From the sequence record MN850645.1: a stretch of 64,000 nucleotides of DNA. One strand, given 5' to 3'. Of the stretch, positions 36,600 to 55,538 are shown piece by piece. The DNA comes from Escherichia phage outra. Position 1 is the first letter of the stretch. Each line of letters opens with the position of its first letter. A program made the translations under genes and the position numbers. The notes beneath the pieces were generated by a model. That model had not been told where the DNA came from. It saw nothing but the letters and a program-made list of their open reading frames with translations, and searched no databases.

Positions 36600-36840
36600 T
36601 CATTTTTATAAAAAGGACAAAATTATTTAAAGTTTTTACAGATTTTTGGGTACAAATTTTGAAAATGAAAAGTTCAAGTTTGGTCAAAATTATTTAAAGT
36701 TTTTGTACGTATTTCTATCCAGATTTTGAAAATGAAAACTTCAATTTTTTAAAAATTCCCCAGTTTATTTAAAGTTTTTTTGCCTTTTTCCGTAGAAAAA
36801 TCAAAAATGAAAAGTTCAATTTCGTGTTTTTATGGGTGTG
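36600..36840. repeat. tandem direct repeats (about 60-70 bp period, 3-4 copies) in a non-coding region
   Basis: Recurring TTTTGAAAATGAAAAGTTCAA and ATTATTTAAAGTTTTT blocks near 36623, 36658-36698, 36724-36777, 36800-36830. Confidence 0.6.
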
Positions 36841-36841
36841 C

Positions 36842-36955
36842 GTATGATAATCATTTTCATTTGTAAATGAGAATCATTATCATTTAAGTATGTAAGTGAT
36901 AATCATTCTCAGTAAGAGAATGAGAATCATTAGCAAATGAGAATTTTCTCATTTA
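36842..36955. promoter_or_regulatory. cluster of AT-rich dyad operator-like sites (AATGA-n3-TCATT, Fur-box-like)
   Basis: gataatcatt, aatgagaatcattatc, gtgataatcattctc, gaatgagaatcattagc and the perfect palindrome aaatgagaattttctcattt. Confidence 0.45.
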
Positions 36956-47744: not shown

Positions 47745-47773
47745 CAAGGGCGCTTATTGCGCCCTTTCTTTTT
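47745..47773 (+). terminator. Rho-independent terminator
   Basis: aagggcgcttattgcgcccttt plus T-tract. Confidence 0.7.
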
Positions 47774-47977: not shown

Positions 47978-48052
47978 AAATGATAATCATTCTTATTTAT
48001 AGCTGATTATTTATGCAATAAACTGCATAATGCAATAATGATAATCATTCTT
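47978..48052. promoter_or_regulatory. two Fur-box-like dyads (AATGATAATCATTCTT), 55 bp apart
   Basis: Read directly. Confidence 0.4.
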
Positions 48053-48906
48053 AACTTATGACCATCTAACCTATAAAATAATAAGCTATCTAACTAAATT
48101 AAAACTAATTATCTCACCTTTATTTATAACTTACTGTTACTATCTCATTGATAACCTTATATTAAACAACAATAACTAATATAAATCATTACTAAGCTAA
48201 ATATAATCTATCTAACCTTTAAAACTATAACTATAATCTATCGAATTGTTGCACAAAGTAACTATTAAATTGTTAGTAACATTGCTAAATAATTAATATC
48301 CTATCTATTTATGATCTAATCTTTACCTTCCTATTTATTACCTAAATAACCATTTCATATAGTAATTATTTCATACAATAACTATAACAAGAAACATAAT
48401 TCGCAAGCGTATCATTAGCAGCCTATGCCGGACACATAGGCGGCTAATAATAACGCAACTACACACCCCACATAATAACCATCACCGATAGTTATTATTT
48501 GTGCTTATGTAGCTTGCAACAATTGCAAGCGCAACAATATACTAAGGTATATTGTATCCCTTACATTGTTGCGGTGCGTTATTATTAGCTAATGTTTAGA
48601 ACATTGGCTATAATATAAGCTGCATATAATAAGCTATTCAATAATAAACATCGTGAATAATGACATTGATGATCATAATGCGCCACCCTCCAGGGGGCGC
48701 TATGTGAACACAAAGAAATCTTTCTTATCAAGAAAATATTATCACTATTGCGCAAAATTATTTACATCTGAATAGATGATTTTTCATACTATTATTGTTA
48801 TTTGTTGAGCATAGTTATAGCCTATTTGTTGAGCCTACTTTCTTAAAAGCGCAATAAATCAGAATTATCTTGATTTTTAGTGCGTTTTATAGTATAGAAA
48901 ATATGC

Positions 48907-48923
48907 AAATGATAATCATTATC
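48907..48923. promoter_or_regulatory. near-perfect Fur-box-like site (AAATGATAATCATTATC) just downstream of a TTGATT-N17-TATAGA promoter-like element
   Basis: 15-nt identity with positions 5-19 of the E. coli Fur consensus GATAATGATAATCATTATC. Confidence 0.45.
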
Positions 48924-49480
48924 AGCTATCTTCCACGGGTAGCACTATTTCACGCCAGATCATTTCATTTGGCAAGGTGTATATAGATGTTTAGACTTGC
49001 CAAGTTATTGATTTACTTAGAATTTATCTATTTTGTTGTGAGTAGTACCTTTCTTGCTTAGAAAATAATCAAAAGTCTTATAAGTCATTGAATGATAATA
49101 CAAATGATAATTATTCTCATTGATATTTGAGGGGGACGGTCGGCAGAAATCGGGGGGTGCTGAAAATCGCGTTAAGCACCTCTCGCAAGCGAGCAGTATT
49201 TTGCGGCAAGTTATTGATATTATTGGCTTTACGCTTATGAAAAGGGGGTGTGTCGAAATAAAGCGGGTATACCGGAAAATTTTTGTGGCATAGATATTTA
49301 TTTGTCTATATTATGTACAAAGGGGTGTGTTAAAAATATTAGGTATATATAGAATAATTGATAGGGAAATCCTATACTAATCCCTCCATTAATGATGTTT
49401 CTATGTTACTGTTCTTGTAATAGATGAAAAGACGCTGTATGATGTGTGGCATGAAACGTAAACTTATAAAGGAGTCTGAT

Positions 49481-49858
49481 ATGTGTGTTCCTCTTAGCAG
49501 TCCACTGCTGTTAGAATTTTATAAAGCATGGATGCAAGATCATTCCTCAATGCATCGTGAGAATGTTGGTTTGTGTATTTGCCTTATGGATTATCTGGCA
49601 ACCACTATGTCAAAGAAAAAACCTACGCGAGAAGATATAGAACATTTCAAGATGGTTCGTAGTAAAACGCTGGAAGAGATGAAATTGCAATTCACGTGTG
49701 CTGGGCTATCCTCCTTCCTGCCCTTTAATGATGATCTTCTGTGTTATGAAGATGAAGGTAAGAAACATTCTTGCCATACTAACCCAGAGAGATTGCAGTG
49801 GGTGAAAGATCGTATTGCCGATTCGTGTTTGGTGTTAGGGGGTGACAATGAAAAGTAA
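49481..49858 (+). CDS. hypothetical protein, paralog family member 1
   Basis: LLLEFYKAW...GLCICLMDYL...QFTCAGL...LPFN...CHTN..RLQWVKDRI; AAAGGAG RBS. Confidence 0.5.
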   Translation: MCVPLSSPLLLEFYKAWMQDHSSMHRENVGLCICLMDYLATTMSKKKPTREDIEHFKMVRSKTLEEMKLQFTCAGLSSFLPFNDDLLCYEDEGKKHSCHTNPERLQWVKDRIADSCLVLGGDNEK

Positions 49859-50216
49859 TATTCCGTTGAGTAGTGCAGCTTTAATACGATTCTATAAAGC
49901 ATGGATTGCCAACCATCCGGCAATGAATCGCACAACGAGTGGCTTGTGTGGTTGTCTGGTAGATTATGTAGATGATTTTGTTGGTGAGGTAACTAGAGAA
50001 GAAGATAAAAGATGGCGTGATCGTTTGTTGGATAGTTTGAAATACGAAATGAGGAAACAATTTACATGTGCAGGACTGGACTACAATCTTCCGTTCAATG
50101 CAGATTGCATGGATTACCTTTCAGAATGTATAGACTTGGCGTGTCATACCAACACGTTACGTCTTCAATGGGTGAAAAACAGAATCGAAGATGCAAATAA
50201 TGCTTGCATTGAATAG
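49848..50216 (+). CDS. hypothetical protein, paralog family member 2
   Basis: Same motif set as 49481..49858; tandem duplicate. Confidence 0.5.
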   Translation: MKSNIPLSSAALIRFYKAWIANHPAMNRTTSGLCGCLVDYVDDFVGEVTREEDKRWRDRLLDSLKYEMRKQFTCAGLDYNLPFNADCMDYLSECIDLACHTNTLRLQWVKNRIEDANNACIE

Positions 50217-50286
50217 AAATGCCTGTACACTGTGTTCCATAAGATATGCAATATCGCGCATAACAAACTACTAATGAGAGGTGTAA

Positions 50287-50745
50287 ATGAAAACTGTATC
50301 TTTGTATCTTGCTAACACGGAGCGTGTACATAATCTTGTAAAAGAATGTGGTGTGAGTGTTCAATTTAACACAGGAAAGCCTTCTGTGGTGATAGGCAGT
50401 GAGATGTGTGTTATTGATTTCATCAATGAATATTTTCGTGGGAAGCCTATTGCTCGTCACTTCATCCGAGAAATGCGAGATGTACAACAGGATTATGAAT
50501 TCTACCCAGAAATTTGTGAACGCTATGAAACTATTCTTAGTTCTGTAGAAGATCCAGATACCAGTGAAACAGGTGCTTCCCACTTACTGTGGATGTTGAA
50601 TGAAATTCAGGATGGGTGTAATGGTATGTCTGAAACCAAACGCCATCGTTGGCTAGGTTATATTCAGGGTGTTATGGTTATGAAAAACCTTATTACAGTG
50701 AATGACGAACGTAATGCTACACGCCCCGTCTTTAATGGAGCATAA
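50287..50745 (+). CDS. hypothetical protein
   Basis: 152 aa. Confidence 0.45.
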   Translation: MKTVSLYLANTERVHNLVKECGVSVQFNTGKPSVVIGSEMCVIDFINEYFRGKPIARHFIREMRDVQQDYEFYPEICERYETILSSVEDPDTSETGASHLLWMLNEIQDGCNGMSETKRHRWLGYIQGVMVMKNLITVNDERNATRPVFNGA

Positions 50746-50746
50746 C

Positions 50747-50962
50747 ATGAAAAGGATTCAGGTGTGTATTGAAAATAATTGTGGTTATCTGGGGTTGACA
50801 CACGTTGCTTTCCCTCTTATATTAGATGCTGATATCGCTTACAGCGGAGTTGCTTATGTGTCATTCAAGACAATGAGCCAAGTACCTGGCTGGAAGTGGG
50901 AAGTAGTTGATGTTGTTGAAGGAGAAGATTATGTTTTCCTTCCACACGAATATACTGTTTAA
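50747..50962 (+). CDS. hypothetical protein
   Basis: Start at ATG next to upstream stop. Confidence 0.4.
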   Translation: MKRIQVCIENNCGYLGLTHVAFPLILDADIAYSGVAYVSFKTMSQVPGWKWEVVDVVEGEDYVFLPHEYTV

Positions 50963-50977
50963 AGAGAGGAAAAGAAG

Positions 50978-51154
50978 ATGGATAAACAAACTACTGTGTA
51001 CTTAGTAACAAAGAATACCCCAGGCTGGAGCCAATGCAGCACTGTCCCTTACAAGATCTGTGCAACATTAGAACTAGCACAACGTGCAGAAGCAGAAGTG
51101 AATGCCATGCAATACAGCTATGGTGAAATCATTCCTTTTACTCTTGAACAATAA
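50978..51154 (+). CDS. hypothetical small protein
   Basis: 58 aa hand-translated; GAGAGGAAAAG RBS. Confidence 0.3.
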   Translation: MDKQTTVYLVTKNTPGWSQCSTVPYKICATLELAQRAEAEVNAMQYSYGEIIPFTLEQ

Positions 51155-51165
51155 GGAGTTGTGTA

Positions 51166-51618
51166 ATGTTTGAAATTGGTAAAGTGTATCGTTTTAAAAA
51201 CCCATCTTATATCCGTAAGTTTGCTAACATGTCTGAGTGCAATAGCAGGATTGCTTCTTTTTTAGGTGATTCCTATTTTCGTGTATTAGATGTGGATGAT
51301 TGGTATGGTGTCACTGCTTTGCAATCCTTAGCAGGAGAACAAGAAATTATCGCTCAAAATGAAGGAGACTTTCTTCAGTGTTACACGTTGCTTGCAAAAA
51401 GTGAGTTTGAGTATTTTGTAGAAGTCTTAGAGGAAGCACCAAAAAGTAAACACGAAGAGAAATACCTGCTTGTAGTGGATGGAGTTCCGATCATGGAAAC
51501 CATCTCCCGTGAGGAAGTTGAAAAAGAGGCGAAACGTTACAAGCTGGATCGTACACAGAGTGTAGTTGAAGTCTATTCTCTTGTTGGTGTTGCAGATATT
51601 AGTGTGAACATCGTATAA
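51166..51618 (+). CDS. hypothetical protein
   Basis: 150 aa. Confidence 0.45.
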   Translation: MFEIGKVYRFKNPSYIRKFANMSECNSRIASFLGDSYFRVLDVDDWYGVTALQSLAGEQEIIAQNEGDFLQCYTLLAKSEFEYFVEVLEEAPKSKHEEKYLLVVDGVPIMETISREEVEKEAKRYKLDRTQSVVEVYSLVGVADISVNIV

Positions 51619-51621
51619 TAT

Positions 51622-51834
51622 ATGTGTAATGACAGATACATTCTTCGTGTATCTGATAAGTCTCCTATGTTTGACTGGCGGGGCTGGTGGCTACTAGCTC
51701 CGATGCAAGGTCTGACAGACGTGGAAAAGGAGGCTTATGTGTATACAAAAGAAGAGATAGAAGATAGTCTTTATTTGACAGATAACATTAAGAATGGTAT
51801 CTTTGAGTGTAAATTGAAAGGAGAGGAAGAATGA
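51622..51834 (+). CDS. hypothetical protein
   Basis: 70 aa. Confidence 0.4.
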   Translation: MCNDRYILRVSDKSPMFDWRGWWLLAPMQGLTDVEKEAYVYTKEEIEDSLYLTDNIKNGIFECKLKGEEE

Positions 51835-52130
51835 CTGTTACAGAAAAACTGCGTTGTATTGCAAAGCAAAGTGGAGAAGGTTTATGGTTTCCTATTGAGG
51901 AAATTATTCAGGACTGTTATGATCAGGCTAAGACTGGCAAATATTCCAAAGCATTTAAACCATCTGTTTTCGGTTTGGATGACTATCCAAAAAATGAACA
52001 AGCAAAGAAACGACAAGTTGATTTGATTGATCTTGCTATGGAAGCACTACGAGAGCATGGACTTAGTAAGGTGTATGCTTTAAACACCAAAGAGGGCTTT
52101 GTAGATTCAGTGATCGTAGACTGGTATTAA
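51831..52130 (+). CDS. hypothetical protein
   Basis: 99 aa; ATGA coupling. Confidence 0.45.
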   Translation: MTVTEKLRCIAKQSGEGLWFPIEEIIQDCYDQAKTGKYSKAFKPSVFGLDDYPKNEQAKKRQVDLIDLAMEALREHGLSKVYALNTKEGFVDSVIVDWY

Positions 52131-52139
52131 GGAGAAGTC

Positions 52140-52508
52140 ATGCAAGAGAATACTAAAGTGTGTAGCATGAAAAGCAGCCCCTATTTGCTACAATTTTATG
52201 CGTGGTGGTTAGAACAAGAAGATACAAACTTTAGCAAAAAGCATTATGGTCTTTGCACGTGTCTTGTAGACTTCTTATACAATATTGCTTGGATAAAAGA
52301 TGTTGAGAATGTAGCAAACCTCCAATCCTCTGTACGAGAGGAAATGAAGGAACAATTTAAGAAAGCGGGTTTGAACCATTTACATCCGTTTAATACGGAT
52401 TTCTCGCACTACTTTACGGAAACAGAGTTAGGCATTGCACACCTTAATAAAGAACGTGTACAATGGGTGATTGATCGTATTCGTGATATGGAGGAATACA
52501 ATGGTTAA
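52140..52508 (+). CDS. hypothetical protein, paralog family member 3
   Basis: YLLQFYAWW...GLCTCLVDFL...QFKKAGL...HPFN...ERVQWVIDRI. Confidence 0.5.
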   Translation: MQENTKVCSMKSSPYLLQFYAWWLEQEDTNFSKKHYGLCTCLVDFLYNIAWIKDVENVANLQSSVREEMKEQFKKAGLNHLHPFNTDFSHYFTETELGIAHLNKERVQWVIDRIRDMEEYNG

Positions 52509-52719
52509 GTTTAAAACTTTCTGTGCAATCACTGTTTGTCTTATTCTTGCATACGTGTTATTCTCTGGTATCGTTCGTTTAGGTGAGTATATGGCAAGAG
52601 AAGCTCGTGAAAGTGCAGCTAAAAAAGAACAGTGTATTGTGTTCAAGCATCAAAGAGATGCTGAAAAGTTTCTCGCACTTGATTGCAATCGTTATGTATC
52701 TTATCAAATGTATGAGTAA
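52501..52719 (+). CDS. small membrane-anchored protein (paralog of 57210..57434)
   Basis: N-terminal TM helix; KEQCIVFKHQRDAEKFL motif shared with 57210..57434. Confidence 0.4.
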   Translation: MVKFKTFCAITVCLILAYVLFSGIVRLGEYMAREARESAAKKEQCIVFKHQRDAEKFLALDCNRYVSYQMYE

Positions 52720-52728
52720 GGAGGGTTT

Positions 52729-52953
52729 ATGGTAAAACGTCTGGAATGGGATGCGTGTACTGCTCACGCTTGTCACTGTGATATTGTTGAAGATCCTAAT
52801 GGAGAAATGGTGTATTATGAAGATTACGAAGCATTGCATAATGCTGTGATCGCTTTACTGGATGATATTAGCTCACGCTATCCAGGACAACAGTTTACGT
52901 GTCCACATATTCAACTGTTAGCCAAACTTACGGAGTATCCAAGTGTTCCATAA
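52729..52953 (+). CDS. hypothetical protein (CDIV.DP.GE motif, paralog of 58086..58358)
   Basis: 74 aa. Confidence 0.4.
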   Translation: MVKRLEWDACTAHACHCDIVEDPNGEMVYYEDYEALHNAVIALLDDISSRYPGQQFTCPHIQLLAKLTEYPSVP

Positions 52954-53131
52954 TATGGGTGTCCCTGAACAACTCCTCTTTATTGTAGGACTAGTAGGCT
53001 TATTGGCGGCTGGCGCTAAAGCCGCTTCTCACACGCATCACATAATGTTAAGATTTCTATTCCTGCTCCCTTCTATCCTCGTGTTATTAGTCATACTGAT
53101 CGATAATATTTTGCACAATTAAGGAGAGGTT

Positions 53132-53716
53132 ATGAGTAAAATTATACCAAGCAGTTATGAATTATTGCAGTTTTATGTCTATTATATAGACTGGGTTACT
53201 AGATCGAATGTTAAAGACAATGCGATGTTTAGTAAAAACATCTGTTTAACAGAAAGTATCTTCCGTTACTGGCACACAGGCAGAAAGTGTACACACAGTG
53301 AAGCTATGCGCATTGTAGGAGAATATCTGGAGCAATTGCAAAAAGCAGAGTTACCTGTCCTTCACCCATTCAACGAATCTAAAGAAGAATTAGAACAAGA
53401 GTGTAGAGAAGGTAAGTGCCATTTGAATGAAAAACGTATCGAATGGGTGAGGCAACGTTTAGCCGATACAGGAAAGCCTCCTAGTGACTCTGACTATACG
53501 TGGTATGATGTAGAGGGTTTAGTTCAAGGTTTTGAGGCTTGTGCTATAGATAATACCAACTTTGCCAAAGTTTTATGCGAGGCTTATGATCTGGCAGATA
53601 AAATCCGAAATCAAGGATGGAAACAAGAGCATAAAGAATCATATGAACGTCTTGACAAGATTTTCAAACAGATCTATTCTAACCACAAAGAGATGTTCCA
53701 AATGGAGGATGTGTAA
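53132..53716 (+). CDS. hypothetical protein, paralog family member 4 (divergent, with C-terminal extension)
   Basis: YELLQFYVYY...LHPFN...CHLNEKRIEWVRQRLAD. Confidence 0.45.
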   Translation: MSKIIPSSYELLQFYVYYIDWVTRSNVKDNAMFSKNICLTESIFRYWHTGRKCTHSEAMRIVGEYLEQLQKAELPVLHPFNESKEELEQECREGKCHLNEKRIEWVRQRLADTGKPPSDSDYTWYDVEGLVQGFEACAIDNTNFAKVLCEAYDLADKIRNQGWKQEHKESYERLDKIFKQIYSNHKEMFQMEDV

Positions 53717-54399
53717 TGAAAGAGATTATGTTTGAAGGTCATCGTTACGAAGTTCCAGACAATGCAAATTTCATGGCTCGTGATATCACTGGAGATGTGT
53801 TCTGGTTTGAAGATGAACCTGTGTTTTCGAACAAACACTGGTTTTCACAACAATCTTCTTCGGAAAATATGACTTTTGGTTATGTAGAACCTAAAGTACG
53901 TTGCAAAGCAGCTTCTTCTTTGGTAAAAATTTCCCAAGATGACCAAGAAAATACTCAAGATGTTGTTAGTGCGCTACTGAAGTACATTGCAGAACTTGAG
54001 AAGAAAATTAAAGAAGCAGAAACTAAGGTGGAAGCACGATCAGCAATCATCGAAGCTATGTCTGAACGTATTTTAGAACTAGAAGATTTGTGTGGAGAGG
54101 CTTATCAAGTGGTTGGTGCACTGGCTTGTGAAGCACAAATGTTTGAAACTTCAGAACAAGTTTCACATATGTTAGATAATTTGAGTGAATGTAAAATGAT
54201 TCATGATGATGTGTTACCATTTTGTTGCAATGTTAACAAAACAGAGCAAACACAAGATTCAGAAACAGTTTATGTTCCGCTAATGTGTGTTCCAGATCAT
54301 CTAAAAGGTGTATTCTCTTGTAAATGGTCGCTGTTGAGCGTTACTAATTGTGGTGAAAACTATTCTGCTAACATTGAATTGCTAAAACACGTTAAATAA
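53716..54399 (+). CDS. hypothetical protein with central coiled coil
   Basis: 227 aa. Confidence 0.45.
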   Translation: MKEIMFEGHRYEVPDNANFMARDITGDVFWFEDEPVFSNKHWFSQQSSSENMTFGYVEPKVRCKAASSLVKISQDDQENTQDVVSALLKYIAELEKKIKEAETKVEARSAIIEAMSERILELEDLCGEAYQVVGALACEAQMFETSEQVSHMLDNLSECKMIHDDVLPFCCNVNKTEQTQDSETVYVPLMCVPDHLKGVFSCKWSLLSVTNCGENYSANIELLKHVK

Positions 54400-54409
54400 G
54401 GAGAGTAAG

Positions 54410-54814
54410 ATGTGGTCTGTTAAAATCAAATATAATGCACAGTATTATGGTGGACAACCTTATGAAGTTGTTATTTGTGACTGTATCTCTAAAGAAGTTG
54501 CACAGCTTTGTGGCACTGGTGTTAGTGAAGCTATGAACAAAATGCATAACTCGACTGTGCGTTACCTGGATCAAGATATTCCAGAAGATGTAAATGATTA
54601 TGGTTACGAAATTATTTACAGTGAAGGTAAGAAGCTCTCTATTGAAGATGCACTTAAAGCACTACCTGCTATGTGCAATCCAACACCAGAAGCAGTTAAA
54701 AAGATTTTACCAGAATCCAACCCCGATGAATATGCTGCTATGGTTGCTTCAGACATGTGGAATCTCTGTCGAGAAACTATGATTAAAAATCTGGTGGAAA
54801 TGGCGCATGAGTAA
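54410..54814 (+). CDS. hypothetical protein
   Basis: 134 aa. Confidence 0.45.
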   Translation: MWSVKIKYNAQYYGGQPYEVVICDCISKEVAQLCGTGVSEAMNKMHNSTVRYLDQDIPEDVNDYGYEIIYSEGKKLSIEDALKALPAMCNPTPEAVKKILPESNPDEYAAMVASDMWNLCRETMIKNLVEMAHE

Positions 54815-55025: not shown

Positions 55026-55193
55026 TGCAAACATTTTTTATCGACAAGTTCAATAAAAATATGAACACGTGGATGGCAACATTCACTATGCAATTTGCAT
55101 CGTTTAAAGAAGCTCAAGAATGGTGCGATCAACACAAGGATTTTGATTTTTACTATCAAATCAATCCGAATCTCTCTCCAGAGGAGAAATAAT

Positions 55194-55538
55194 ATGTTGG
55201 CTGATATTGAAATCCTTATGTACCGACAAGGTATGATCAAAATGTGGCTAGATTCTTTTAGCAACATATACTGCACAGTGCGATCAGCAGAGGAGCGTAA
55301 AACGCTTATTTTATCTGCTATTGTTGATAAACAACGTTTCTTCAAAGAAGTTTTGCAAACAGGCTTCTCCGATGCAGGAGTAGAAATTGCAACTCTTAGT
55401 CTTGGGGTGCTGTCTTACTTGGAATCCGTTGTTTTATATGTCTTCTCTTTAGAAGAACACTTGCAATTTGAAGCATTAAAACTTATCTTAGATGCTGCAA
55501 TTGACATAGAACAAAATCGAATTGATTCTTTTGAATAA
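55194..55538 (+). CDS. hypothetical protein
   Basis: Start at Met with GGAGA RBS. Confidence 0.4.
   Translation: MLADIEILMYRQGMIKMWLDSFSNIYCTVRSAEERKTLILSAIVDKQRFFKEVLQTGFSDAGVEIATLSLGVLSYLESVVLYVFSLEEHLQFEALKLILDAAIDIEQNRIDSFE

What the first reader, a model, noticed from the sequence alone, without database searches (positions are those of the whole stretch)
49481..53716. Four-member paralogous family of about 120-aa proteins inside one operon
ORFs 49481..49858, 49848..50216, 52140..52508 and 53132..53716 share a collinear motif set (LL.FY..W, GLC.CL.D.., QF..AGL, LPFN.D, CH.N..R.QWV.DRI). Two are tandem duplicates. Such expansions in phage early or middle regions often mark diversifying inhibitors of host factors or defence systems.
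Basis: seen in the sequence. Interest (0 to 1): 0.55.

Follow-up and report, generated by a model that had tools for sequence, protein, structure and literature searches.

The report
Four-copy early phage protein family
A phi92-like E. coli phage carries four old, diverged copies of a small all-helical protein domain, found only in phages and of unknown function, as the first genes behind its genome end, which makes them reasonable but untested candidates for host-takeover or anti-defence proteins.

Summary
ORFs 49481-49858 (A), 49848-50216 (B), 52140-52508 (C) and 53132-53716 (D) are homologous: pairwise BLASTP E is 1e-31 to 1e-5 at 30-47% identity, and no fifth copy exists in the window.

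- **Where they sit.** The window is a Justusliebigvirus (phi92-like) genome. A starts about 650 bp from the physical left end.
- **What the family is.** It is large (773 clusters at 50% identity), found only in phages in every context I examined, and listed as PHROG 2510/6418/27059 with unknown function. It has no Pfam model, no PDB sequence relative and no fold neighbour.
- **Where relatives sit.** They lie in early-gene clusters of N4-like and T7-like phages. Others are fused in tandem, to DUF551, or inside mosaic EaA-type proteins.
- **What I did not confirm.** Orthologues are under purifying selection (dN/dS 0.08-0.32), so there is no sign of diversifying selection. Change comes from cassette gain, loss and recombination instead. 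The Cys/His positions are not conserved together, so a metal site is unlikely.

My best guess is non-enzymatic early binding modules aimed at host or defence proteins. That function is inferred, not shown. The finding is real but modestly novel.

The parts
49481..49858 (+). Paralogue A (125 aa), the first gene after the left genome end. Its tail overlaps the start of B by 11 nt.
   Evidence: ORF and ribosome-binding site. phrog_2510 E 7e-22. Orthologues of at least 90% identity in 33 phage records. dN/dS 0.19.
49848..50216 (+). Paralogue B (122 aa), the tandem partner of A.
   Evidence: 46% identical to A, E 3e-31. phrog_2510 E 9e-24. Orthologues of at least 90% in 60 records, some of them Phapecoctavirus-type phages. 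It is 97.5% identical in DNA to the copy in locus L005 (a Phapecoctavirus-like contig), whose flanks are only about 68-88% identical.
52140..52508 (+). Paralogue C (122 aa), the orthologue of phi92 gp006. It is present in all 16 related loci I examined.
   Evidence: AlphaFold model is all-helical with six helices, pLDDT 85.6, pTM 0.78. dN/dS 0.08.
53132..53716 (+). Paralogue D (194 aa), the orthologue of phi92 gp010. The family domain covers roughly residues 1-113 (53132-53470). A C-terminal extension follows, roughly residues 122-189, predicted as three helices at low confidence.
   Evidence: phrog_27059 E 5e-140 and phrog_2510 E 7e-17. C-D BLASTP E 9e-10. AlphaFold model. The extension also matches separate small-protein families phrog_25020 and phrog_24126. 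dN/dS 0.11.
49395..50165 (.). A+B cassette, a 771-bp segment that is absent from phi92. The same slot holds A+B, a single A/B chimera, B alone, or nothing in related phages.
   Evidence: phi92 1-565 aligns to window 48832-49394, and phi92 566-641 aligns to 50166-50241. Slot occupancy across 16 loci. The chimera has its crossover in the shared RLQWVKDRI motif.
48832..49174 (.). Counterpart of the 343-bp direct terminal repeat annotated in phi92, which marks the physical left end of the genome. It fixes the family as the genes nearest that end.
   Evidence: 97% identity to phi92 from its position 1. The DTR is annotated in the phi92 and UAB_1 records.

Best explanation
The four genes are old, diverged paralogues of one phage-specific domain. 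The domain is about 105 residues long, soluble, mildly acidic and all-helical, and it has no characterised relative.

They are the first genes behind the left terminal repeat of a phi92-like virulent phage. I therefore expect them to be expressed immediately on infection; this is inferred from position only.

I think they most likely act stoichiometrically as binding modules, not as enzymes. On this view a conserved patch docks onto a host or host-defence macromolecule. That patch would include Ser12/13, Gly-Leu-Cys37-39, Glu68, Gln72, Pro-Phe-Asn83-85, Asn103, Arg106 and Trp109 (C numbering). The variable remainder of the surface would give each paralogue its own specificity or partner.

The family's repertoire changes through cassette gain, loss, recombination between copies and exchange between phage genera. 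It does not change through rapid amino-acid substitution.

Shown here: homology, fold prediction, genome position, purifying selection, cassette turnover and domain fusions. Inferred: early expression, a binding rather than catalytic role, and the nature of the target.
For: Homology and family size:
- The four proteins are homologous.
- The family has 773 representative clusters at E<=1e-3.

No link to any known function:
- No Pfam, NCBIfam or PADLOC match.
- A 95-sequence profile finds nothing in PDB sequences at E<=10.

Consistent early-region position in unrelated phage groups:
- 650 bp from the genome end in this window.
- The third ORF from the left end of an N4-species phage, HMM E 4.5e-19.
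- Near the left end of an N4-like Erwinia phage.
- Upstream of the primase gene in a T7-like Rhizobium phage.
- Inside an EaA-type protein of a P22-like phage.

Accessory, turnover-prone behaviour:
- Relatives hold 1 to 13 matching places per genome.
- The A/B slot has four different states among 17 genomes.
- Four relatives carry an A/B recombinant.
- B is a high-identity island shared between genera.

Other support:
- The genes are real and constrained: dN/dS 0.08-0.32.
- Fusion partners are only non-enzymatic modules: tandem copies of the domain, DUF551, and coiled-coil EaA-type N-termini.
- The Cys/His positions are not co-conserved, which argues against catalysis or a metal site.
- pI is 5.4-5.9, which argues against a DNA mimic or a basic DNA binder.
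Against: - There is no experimental or database evidence for any binding partner.
- The number of conserved polar residues (Cys39 94%, Glu68 91%, Gln72 95%, Asn103 93%, Arg106 100%) would also fit a small-ligand pocket or an unusual active site.
- Early expression is inferred from gene position only.
- Purifying selection within each orthologue is not what a rapidly evolving arms-race protein classically shows.
- I could not inspect model coordinates, so the idea that the conserved residues cluster in space is untested.
Confidence: 0.45

Rival explanations
1. The domain is a small enzyme or metal-binding protein that uses the conserved Cys (GLC motif) and the Cys-His pair (CHxN motif).
For: Cys39 sits at the N-terminus of a predicted helix and is 94% conserved. 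His101 is 81% conserved. Asn103 (93%) and Arg106 (100%) lie next to it.
Against: Cys100 is only 59% conserved. His101 is replaced by Tyr, Arg, Ser, Asn, Pro, Leu or Phe in sequences that keep Cys39. The losses are not correlated. Paralogue C lacks Cys100, and D lacks the GLC cysteine in the profile alignment. No fold or sequence similarity to any enzyme was found.
Confidence: 0.1
2. The proteins bind nucleic acid and act as early regulators of phage or host transcription.
Confidence: 0.12
3. The domain is a sponge for a small-molecule immune signal or another small ligand, working like Tad1, Tad2 or Acb2. The invariant aromatic residues and Arg would form the pocket.
For: Tyr20, Phe84 and Arg106 are invariant, and Trp109 is nearly so, together with conserved polar residues in a small protein. 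The genes have an early accessory position. Some relatives are fused to oligomerising coiled-coil modules.
Against: No structural similarity to solved sponge proteins or to anything else in the PDB. As far as I know, sponges are usually single-copy. Most of the invariant aromatic residues follow a helical-face spacing typical of a hydrophobic core.
Confidence: 0.1
4. The proteins serve competition between phages (superinfection exclusion, or exclusion of satellites), not attack on the host.
For: The genes are early, accessory and variable in copy number. The domain also occurs in the early-left accessory region of a temperate phage, a region that is also known to hold exclusion genes (the last point is from my own knowledge).
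Against: The four are acidic, hydrophilic proteins (GRAVY -0.37 to -0.75), unlike many membrane-located exclusion proteins; I ran no transmembrane or signal-peptide prediction. No direct evidence either way.
Confidence: 0.08

Closest known systems
PHROG families phrog_2510, phrog_6418 and phrog_27059 (category 'unknown function'); the phage 'inny' record also tags three of its four copies (A, C, D orthologues) pVOG VOG7392
   Same: Direct profile matches. A, B and C match phrog_2510 best (E 1e-22 to 1e-25), and D is a full-length member of phrog_27059 (E 5e-140). The VOG7392 tags are in the annotation of phage inny.
   Different: These are catalogue clusters with no function, structure or literature behind them. 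Searching papers for their identifiers returned nothing.
EaA / Ea22-type mosaic early proteins of P22-like and lambdoid temperate phages
   Same: The same domain occurs as an internal module of such proteins, between a coiled-coil-like N-terminus and a '...WNACRAAMLNGGKS' C-terminal module. Other records annotate the genes just downstream of D as Eaa-like, Ea22-like and DUF551.
   Different: The window proteins are stand-alone domains in a virulent phage. The SEN22 EaA protein lacks the domain. Fold searches of the PDB, which should include the published lambda Ea22 C-terminal domain NMR structure (PMC10834534, listed), found no match. I did not confirm the Ea22-like and DUF551 labels of the neighbours with Pfam.
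DUF551-containing phage proteins, for example in rV5-like phage Av-05
   Same: One relative (P0157 and its cluster) is named 'DUF551 domain-containing protein' and carries this domain at its C-terminus.
   Different: DUF551 is a different domain, and it too is uncharacterised. The fusion shows association only, not function.
Known small early anti-defence or host-takeover proteins of phages, such as Ocr, ArdA, T4 and T5 pre-early proteins, and Atd1
   Same: Small size, a position next to the genome end, accessory distribution and multiple copies.
   Different: No sequence or fold similarity. The proteins are not strongly acidic like DNA mimics. Atd1, the anti-defence gene reported for this genus, is MazG-like and unrelated. 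Function here is untested.

Membership tests
PHROG 2510/6418/27059 domain family (unknown function) | A significant profile-HMM match over the whole domain | tested here: met
   All four match phrog_2510 with E 7e-17 to 2e-25. D matches phrog_27059 with E 5e-140.
PHROG 2510/6418/27059 domain family (unknown function) | The conserved motif set: SS-x2-L-x2-FY, GLC, E-x3-QF-x2-AGL, PFN, (C)H-x-N-x2-R-x2-WV | tested here: met
   Present in A, B and C. D lacks the GLC glycine-leucine but keeps the rest. Frequencies across 158 diverse domains are.
PHROG 2510/6418/27059 domain family (unknown function) | A shared predicted fold among the paralogues | tested here: met
   C gives six helices at pLDDT 85.6. 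Residues 1-113 of D give helices in the same order at pLDDT 62-89. I could not superpose the two models directly.
Crl (sigma-factor-binding protein, PF07417) | A score above the Pfam gathering threshold, and consistency across the family | tested here: not met
   Only C hits, at 13.6 bits against a cut-off of 27. Only 1 of 95 family members hits. Crl does not appear in the PDB sequence or fold searches.
Structural or catalytic Cys/His metal site | Near-invariant ligand residues that are conserved together | tested here: not met
   Cys39 94%, His101 81%, Cys100 59%, second Cys of GLCxC variable. The substitutions are independent of each other.
DNA-mimic anti-restriction proteins (Ocr/ArdA type) | A very acidic surface that mimics DNA, and a matching fold | tested here: not met
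   Net charge is -3 to -7 and pI is 5.4-5.9. No fold match in the PDB.
HEPN ribonucleases | An R-x(4-6)-H motif in an all-helical domain | tested here: not met
   The conserved residues run in the opposite order, H-x-N-x2-R. No HEPN Pfam hit and no fold hit.
MazG-like Atd1 (the anti-TIR protein reported in Justusliebigvirus) | A MazG pyrophosphatase domain with its paired catalytic motifs | tested here: not met
   No MazG Pfam match. Atd1 is described as MazG-like in bioRxiv 10.1101/2022.06.09.495361.
EaA/Ea22-type mosaic early proteins | A multi-module architecture with an N-terminal coiled-coil region, located in the early-left operon of a temperate phage | tested here: not met
   The window proteins are single-domain, or domain plus a short extension, in a virulent phage. 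Only some relatives have the mosaic architecture.
Curated anti-defence protein families | A match to a known anti-defence profile | not testable with these tools
   No anti-defence profile library was available. PADLOC, which holds defence systems, gave no hit.

The most novel reading that the evidence does not exclude
The domain founds a previously unrecognised, widespread family of phage immediate-early effectors with a new fold. Each paralogue would neutralise a different host immune or housekeeping target. The arrays of 1 to 13 copies would then be multi-specific counter-defence batteries, reshuffled between phages as cassettes.
Probability: 0.2. Interest if true: 0.7.

Novelty: new member of a known kind. 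Interest (0 to 1): 0.4.

Why it matters
The family is large: 773 clusters at 50% identity. It was found only in phages in every context I examined, and it is spread across at least six phage groups (phi92-like, rV5-like, N4-like, T7-like, P22-like and several siphoviruses). It repeatedly sits among the first genes expressed.

Despite this it has no Pfam model, no solved structure and no paper. That makes it a well-defined and cheap target for functional screens.

Natural variants already provide near-isogenic comparisons. phi92 has only C and D, other relatives have A+B, an A/B chimera or B alone, and some related phages show up to 13 matching places.

If the proteins prove to be inhibitors of defence systems or host factors, they would explain part of the accessory early gene content of phages that are candidates for therapy. 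If they do not, the result is still a tidy description of an ordinary uncharacterised family.

Tried and rejected
- **Crl lead.** Paralogue C hit Crl weakly in Pfam and NCBIfam (E 0.03-0.06). I rejected it. Only 1 of 95 family members hits, and Crl appears in none of the PDB sequence or fold searches.
- **Fifth paralogue.** An apparent member at about 55065-55535 appeared with my wider profile. I rejected it. The match is only to the tail of the chimeric database protein P0017, which I had included in the profile.
- **Metal or catalytic site.** Rejected as the main model after counting residue patterns in 158 domains.
- **Atd1.** This anti-defence gene is reported for Justusliebigvirus. It is MazG-like and unrelated.
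- **Plasmid leading-region idea.** The family is essentially absent from plasmids: only 1 of the 6 plasmid records that matched covers the family domain itself.
- **Fusion partners as functional clues.** Ten long relatives gave no Pfam domains and none in NCBIfam. Only unknown-function PHROGs matched.
- **Wider context searches.** These gave little:
  - IMG/VR pattern scans returned three loci.
  - The genome scan returned one locus, matching only the N-terminal module.
  - In E. coli genomes, only the flanking modules of the EaA-type gene matched, not the domain.
  - Two metagenomic contigs showed only small unknown ORFs around the gene.
- **Gifsy-1 / RtcR paper.** It only mentions an eaa homologue in passing and is not relevant.
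- **AFDB fold library.** It was not available.
Full report
**Source of the window.** The region 49000-54500 is 96-98% identical to many Justusliebigvirus genomes, that is, phi92-like phages of the subfamily Stephanstirmvirinae. Examples are ESCO32, EmilieFrey (Bas61) and phi92 itself. All genes of this stretch are annotated there as hypothetical proteins.

**Checking the observation.** The four ORFs exist as described.
- Three have strong AGGAG-type ribosome-binding sites. The fourth, B, starts 11 nt inside the end of A.
- Pairwise BLASTP confirms homology. A-B is 46% identical (E 3e-31), A-C 41% (6e-25), B-C 36% (3e-17) and C-D 30% (9e-10). A-D and B-D match over the C-terminal half (about 1e-6).
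- A profile of the four finds no further copy in any frame of the 64-kb window.
- A later apparent fifth hit came from a chimeric database protein in my wider profile and is not real.
- DNA similarity between the paralogues is almost erased, so the duplications are old.
- AlphaFold predicts a compact six-helix domain for C (pLDDT 85.6, pTM 0.78). It predicts helices in the same order for residues 1-113 of D, followed by a low-confidence three-helix extension.

**Position in the genome.**
- The phi92 record annotates a 343-bp left direct terminal repeat starting at base 1.
- phi92 bases 1-565 align to window 48832-49394, and bases 566-641 align to 50166-50241.
- So the physical left end of the genome lies at about 48832, and A starts about 650 bp from it.
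- phi92 lacks exactly the 771-bp segment that carries A and B.
- Upstream lie a strong terminator (47746-47766) and 1.7 kb with no annotated gene in close relatives. Downstream is a dense co-directional array of small genes.
- Early expression is therefore likely, but I infer it from position alone.

**What the family is.**
- All four proteins match phrog_2510, and D also matches phrog_27059. Both families have unknown function.
- There is no hit in Pfam, NCBIfam or PADLOC.
- An exhaustive profile search finds 773 representative clusters at E<=1e-3. Most are stand-alone proteins of 100-125 residues.
- A 95-sequence profile finds nothing among PDB sequences even at E<=10. The same 95 members give only scattered single chance hits in Pfam.
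- No paper mentions the family identifiers.

**Conservation pattern.** I counted residues across 158 diverse domains, using C numbering.
- Tyr20, Phe84 and Arg106 are invariant.
- Pro83, Trp109, Val110, Phe73, Leu16, Phe19 and Gln72 are at least 95% conserved.
- Cys39, Asn103, Gly37, Leu38 and Glu68 are 91-94% conserved.
- His101 is 81% conserved and Cys100 is 59%.
- The Cys and His positions are replaced independently of each other. A strict metal site or catalytic dyad is therefore unlikely.
- The proteins are mildly acidic, pI 5.4-5.9, with a family median of 5.3. That does not fit a DNA mimic or a basic DNA binder.

**Where relatives sit**.
- An N4-species phage carries a clear member (HMM E 4.5e-19) as the third ORF from its left end.
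- An N4-like Erwinia phage has one near its left end.
- A T7-like Rhizobium phage has a tandem two-domain protein plus another copy, upstream of the primase gene.
- A Skatevirus and an Ounavirinae phage carry one each, inside blocks of small unknown genes.

**Fused forms.**
- Tandem copies of the domain occur (P0021, P0032, P0035).
- A DUF551-domain fusion exists. Its cluster is named 'DUF551 domain-containing protein' in phage Av-05.
- The domain is inserted into mosaic EaA-type proteins. I verified this in the P22-like phage GE_vB_TR, although that record is unverified and the gene is frameshifted there.
- The EaA protein of phage SEN22 lacks the domain.
- Plasmids essentially lack the family.

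**How the family evolves.** I compared 16 related loci with the window.
- C and D are always present.
- The slot behind the terminal repeat holds A+B in six genomes, a single gene in four, B alone in one, and neither in five.
- The single gene in those four is A up to the shared RLQWVKDRI motif, followed by the tail of B. It is a recombinant between the tandem copies.
- B is 97.5% identical in DNA to its copy in a Phapecoctavirus-like contig, whose flanks are about 68-88% identical. This suggests recent cassette exchange.
- tblastn finds 1 to 13 matching places per related genome.
- Pooled Nei-Gojobori dN/dS among orthologues is 0.19 (A), 0.32 (B), 0.08 (C) and 0.11 (D). The eleven neighbouring genes range from 0.03 to 0.37.
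- These are therefore real, constrained genes. There is no gene-wide signal of diversifying selection.

**Interpretation.** I consider these proteins most likely to be immediate-early accessory binding modules that act on host or host-defence macromolecules (confidence 0.45). The reasons are:
- the phage-only distribution in every context I examined;
- the early-region position in several unrelated phage groups;
- variable copy number and cassette turnover;
- fusion only to non-enzymatic modules;
- the lack of a consistent catalytic or metal signature.

The rivals are an unusual enzyme or metal protein, a nucleic-acid-binding regulator, a small-ligand sponge, and a role in competition between phages. 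None is excluded. Each is given with its evidence in the rival list.

**Comparison with what is known.** The family is already catalogued, without function, in PHROGs and pVOGs. It shares a module pool with EaA/Ea22-type early proteins of temperate phages, but these four proteins do not have that architecture. It resembles known early anti-defence proteins only in size, position and accessory behaviour, not in sequence or fold.

**Verdict.** This is a new member of a known kind, namely expanded families of small early accessory proteins. Interest is moderate.

Noticed in passing
window 48905-48923, 48034-48052, 47979-47995, 49103-49119, and an array at about 36840-36950: Sequences close to the E. 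coli Fur-box consensus GATAATGATAATCATTATC (consensus quoted from memory) are enriched. There are 5 matches at 3 or fewer mismatches, against 0.08 expected. The best site has 2 mismatches, lies 74 bp from the physical genome end inside the terminal repeat, and is conserved at the same place in all 15 Justusliebigvirus relatives I checked (a variant of the motif is also present in the Phapecoctavirus-like contig L005). A dense cluster of the same motif sits near 36.9 kb. This could mean iron/Fur control of phage early transcription, or a phage operator that merely resembles a Fur box.
   Followed up: partly
window 48832-49174: The window crosses the physical genome terminus. This stretch corresponds to the 343-bp direct terminal repeat annotated in phi92, so the assembly is permuted or circularised.
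   Followed up: yes
window 53132-53470 joined to 55194-55538 (seen in database protein P0017): A metagenomic relative encodes a 166-aa chimera. It joins the family domain of D to the C-terminal half of the ORF at 55194-55538, which implies a deletion of about 1.9 kb between the two genes.
   Followed up: partly
window 52729-52953: A 74-aa Cys-rich ORF with a weak match to the PHROG for Lar-like restriction-alleviation proteins (E 9e-4). One related record annotates it as a putative HNH endonuclease. It is the most constrained gene of the block, with dN/dS 0.03.
   Followed up: no
window 51166-51618: The N-terminal part of this 150-aa protein matches the PHROG for the goF mRNA metabolism modulator (E 9e-7), along with several unknown-function families.
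   Followed up: no
window 53716-54399 and 54410-54814: The two genes just downstream of D are annotated in phi92 as 'potential Eaa-like' and in JLBYU50 as 'ead/Ea22-like' and 'DUF551 domain-containing'. Pfam did not confirm either label here at E<=0.01.
   Followed up: partly
related records MG065639, MG065645, MG065656, MG065689 and PQ110661: Several 'Campylobacter phage' records, marked UNVERIFIED, are about 97% identical to these E. coli phages, so the host label is doubtful. Phage vB_EcoM_ZYD is filed under Vequintavirus but matches Justusliebigvirus here.
   Followed up: no
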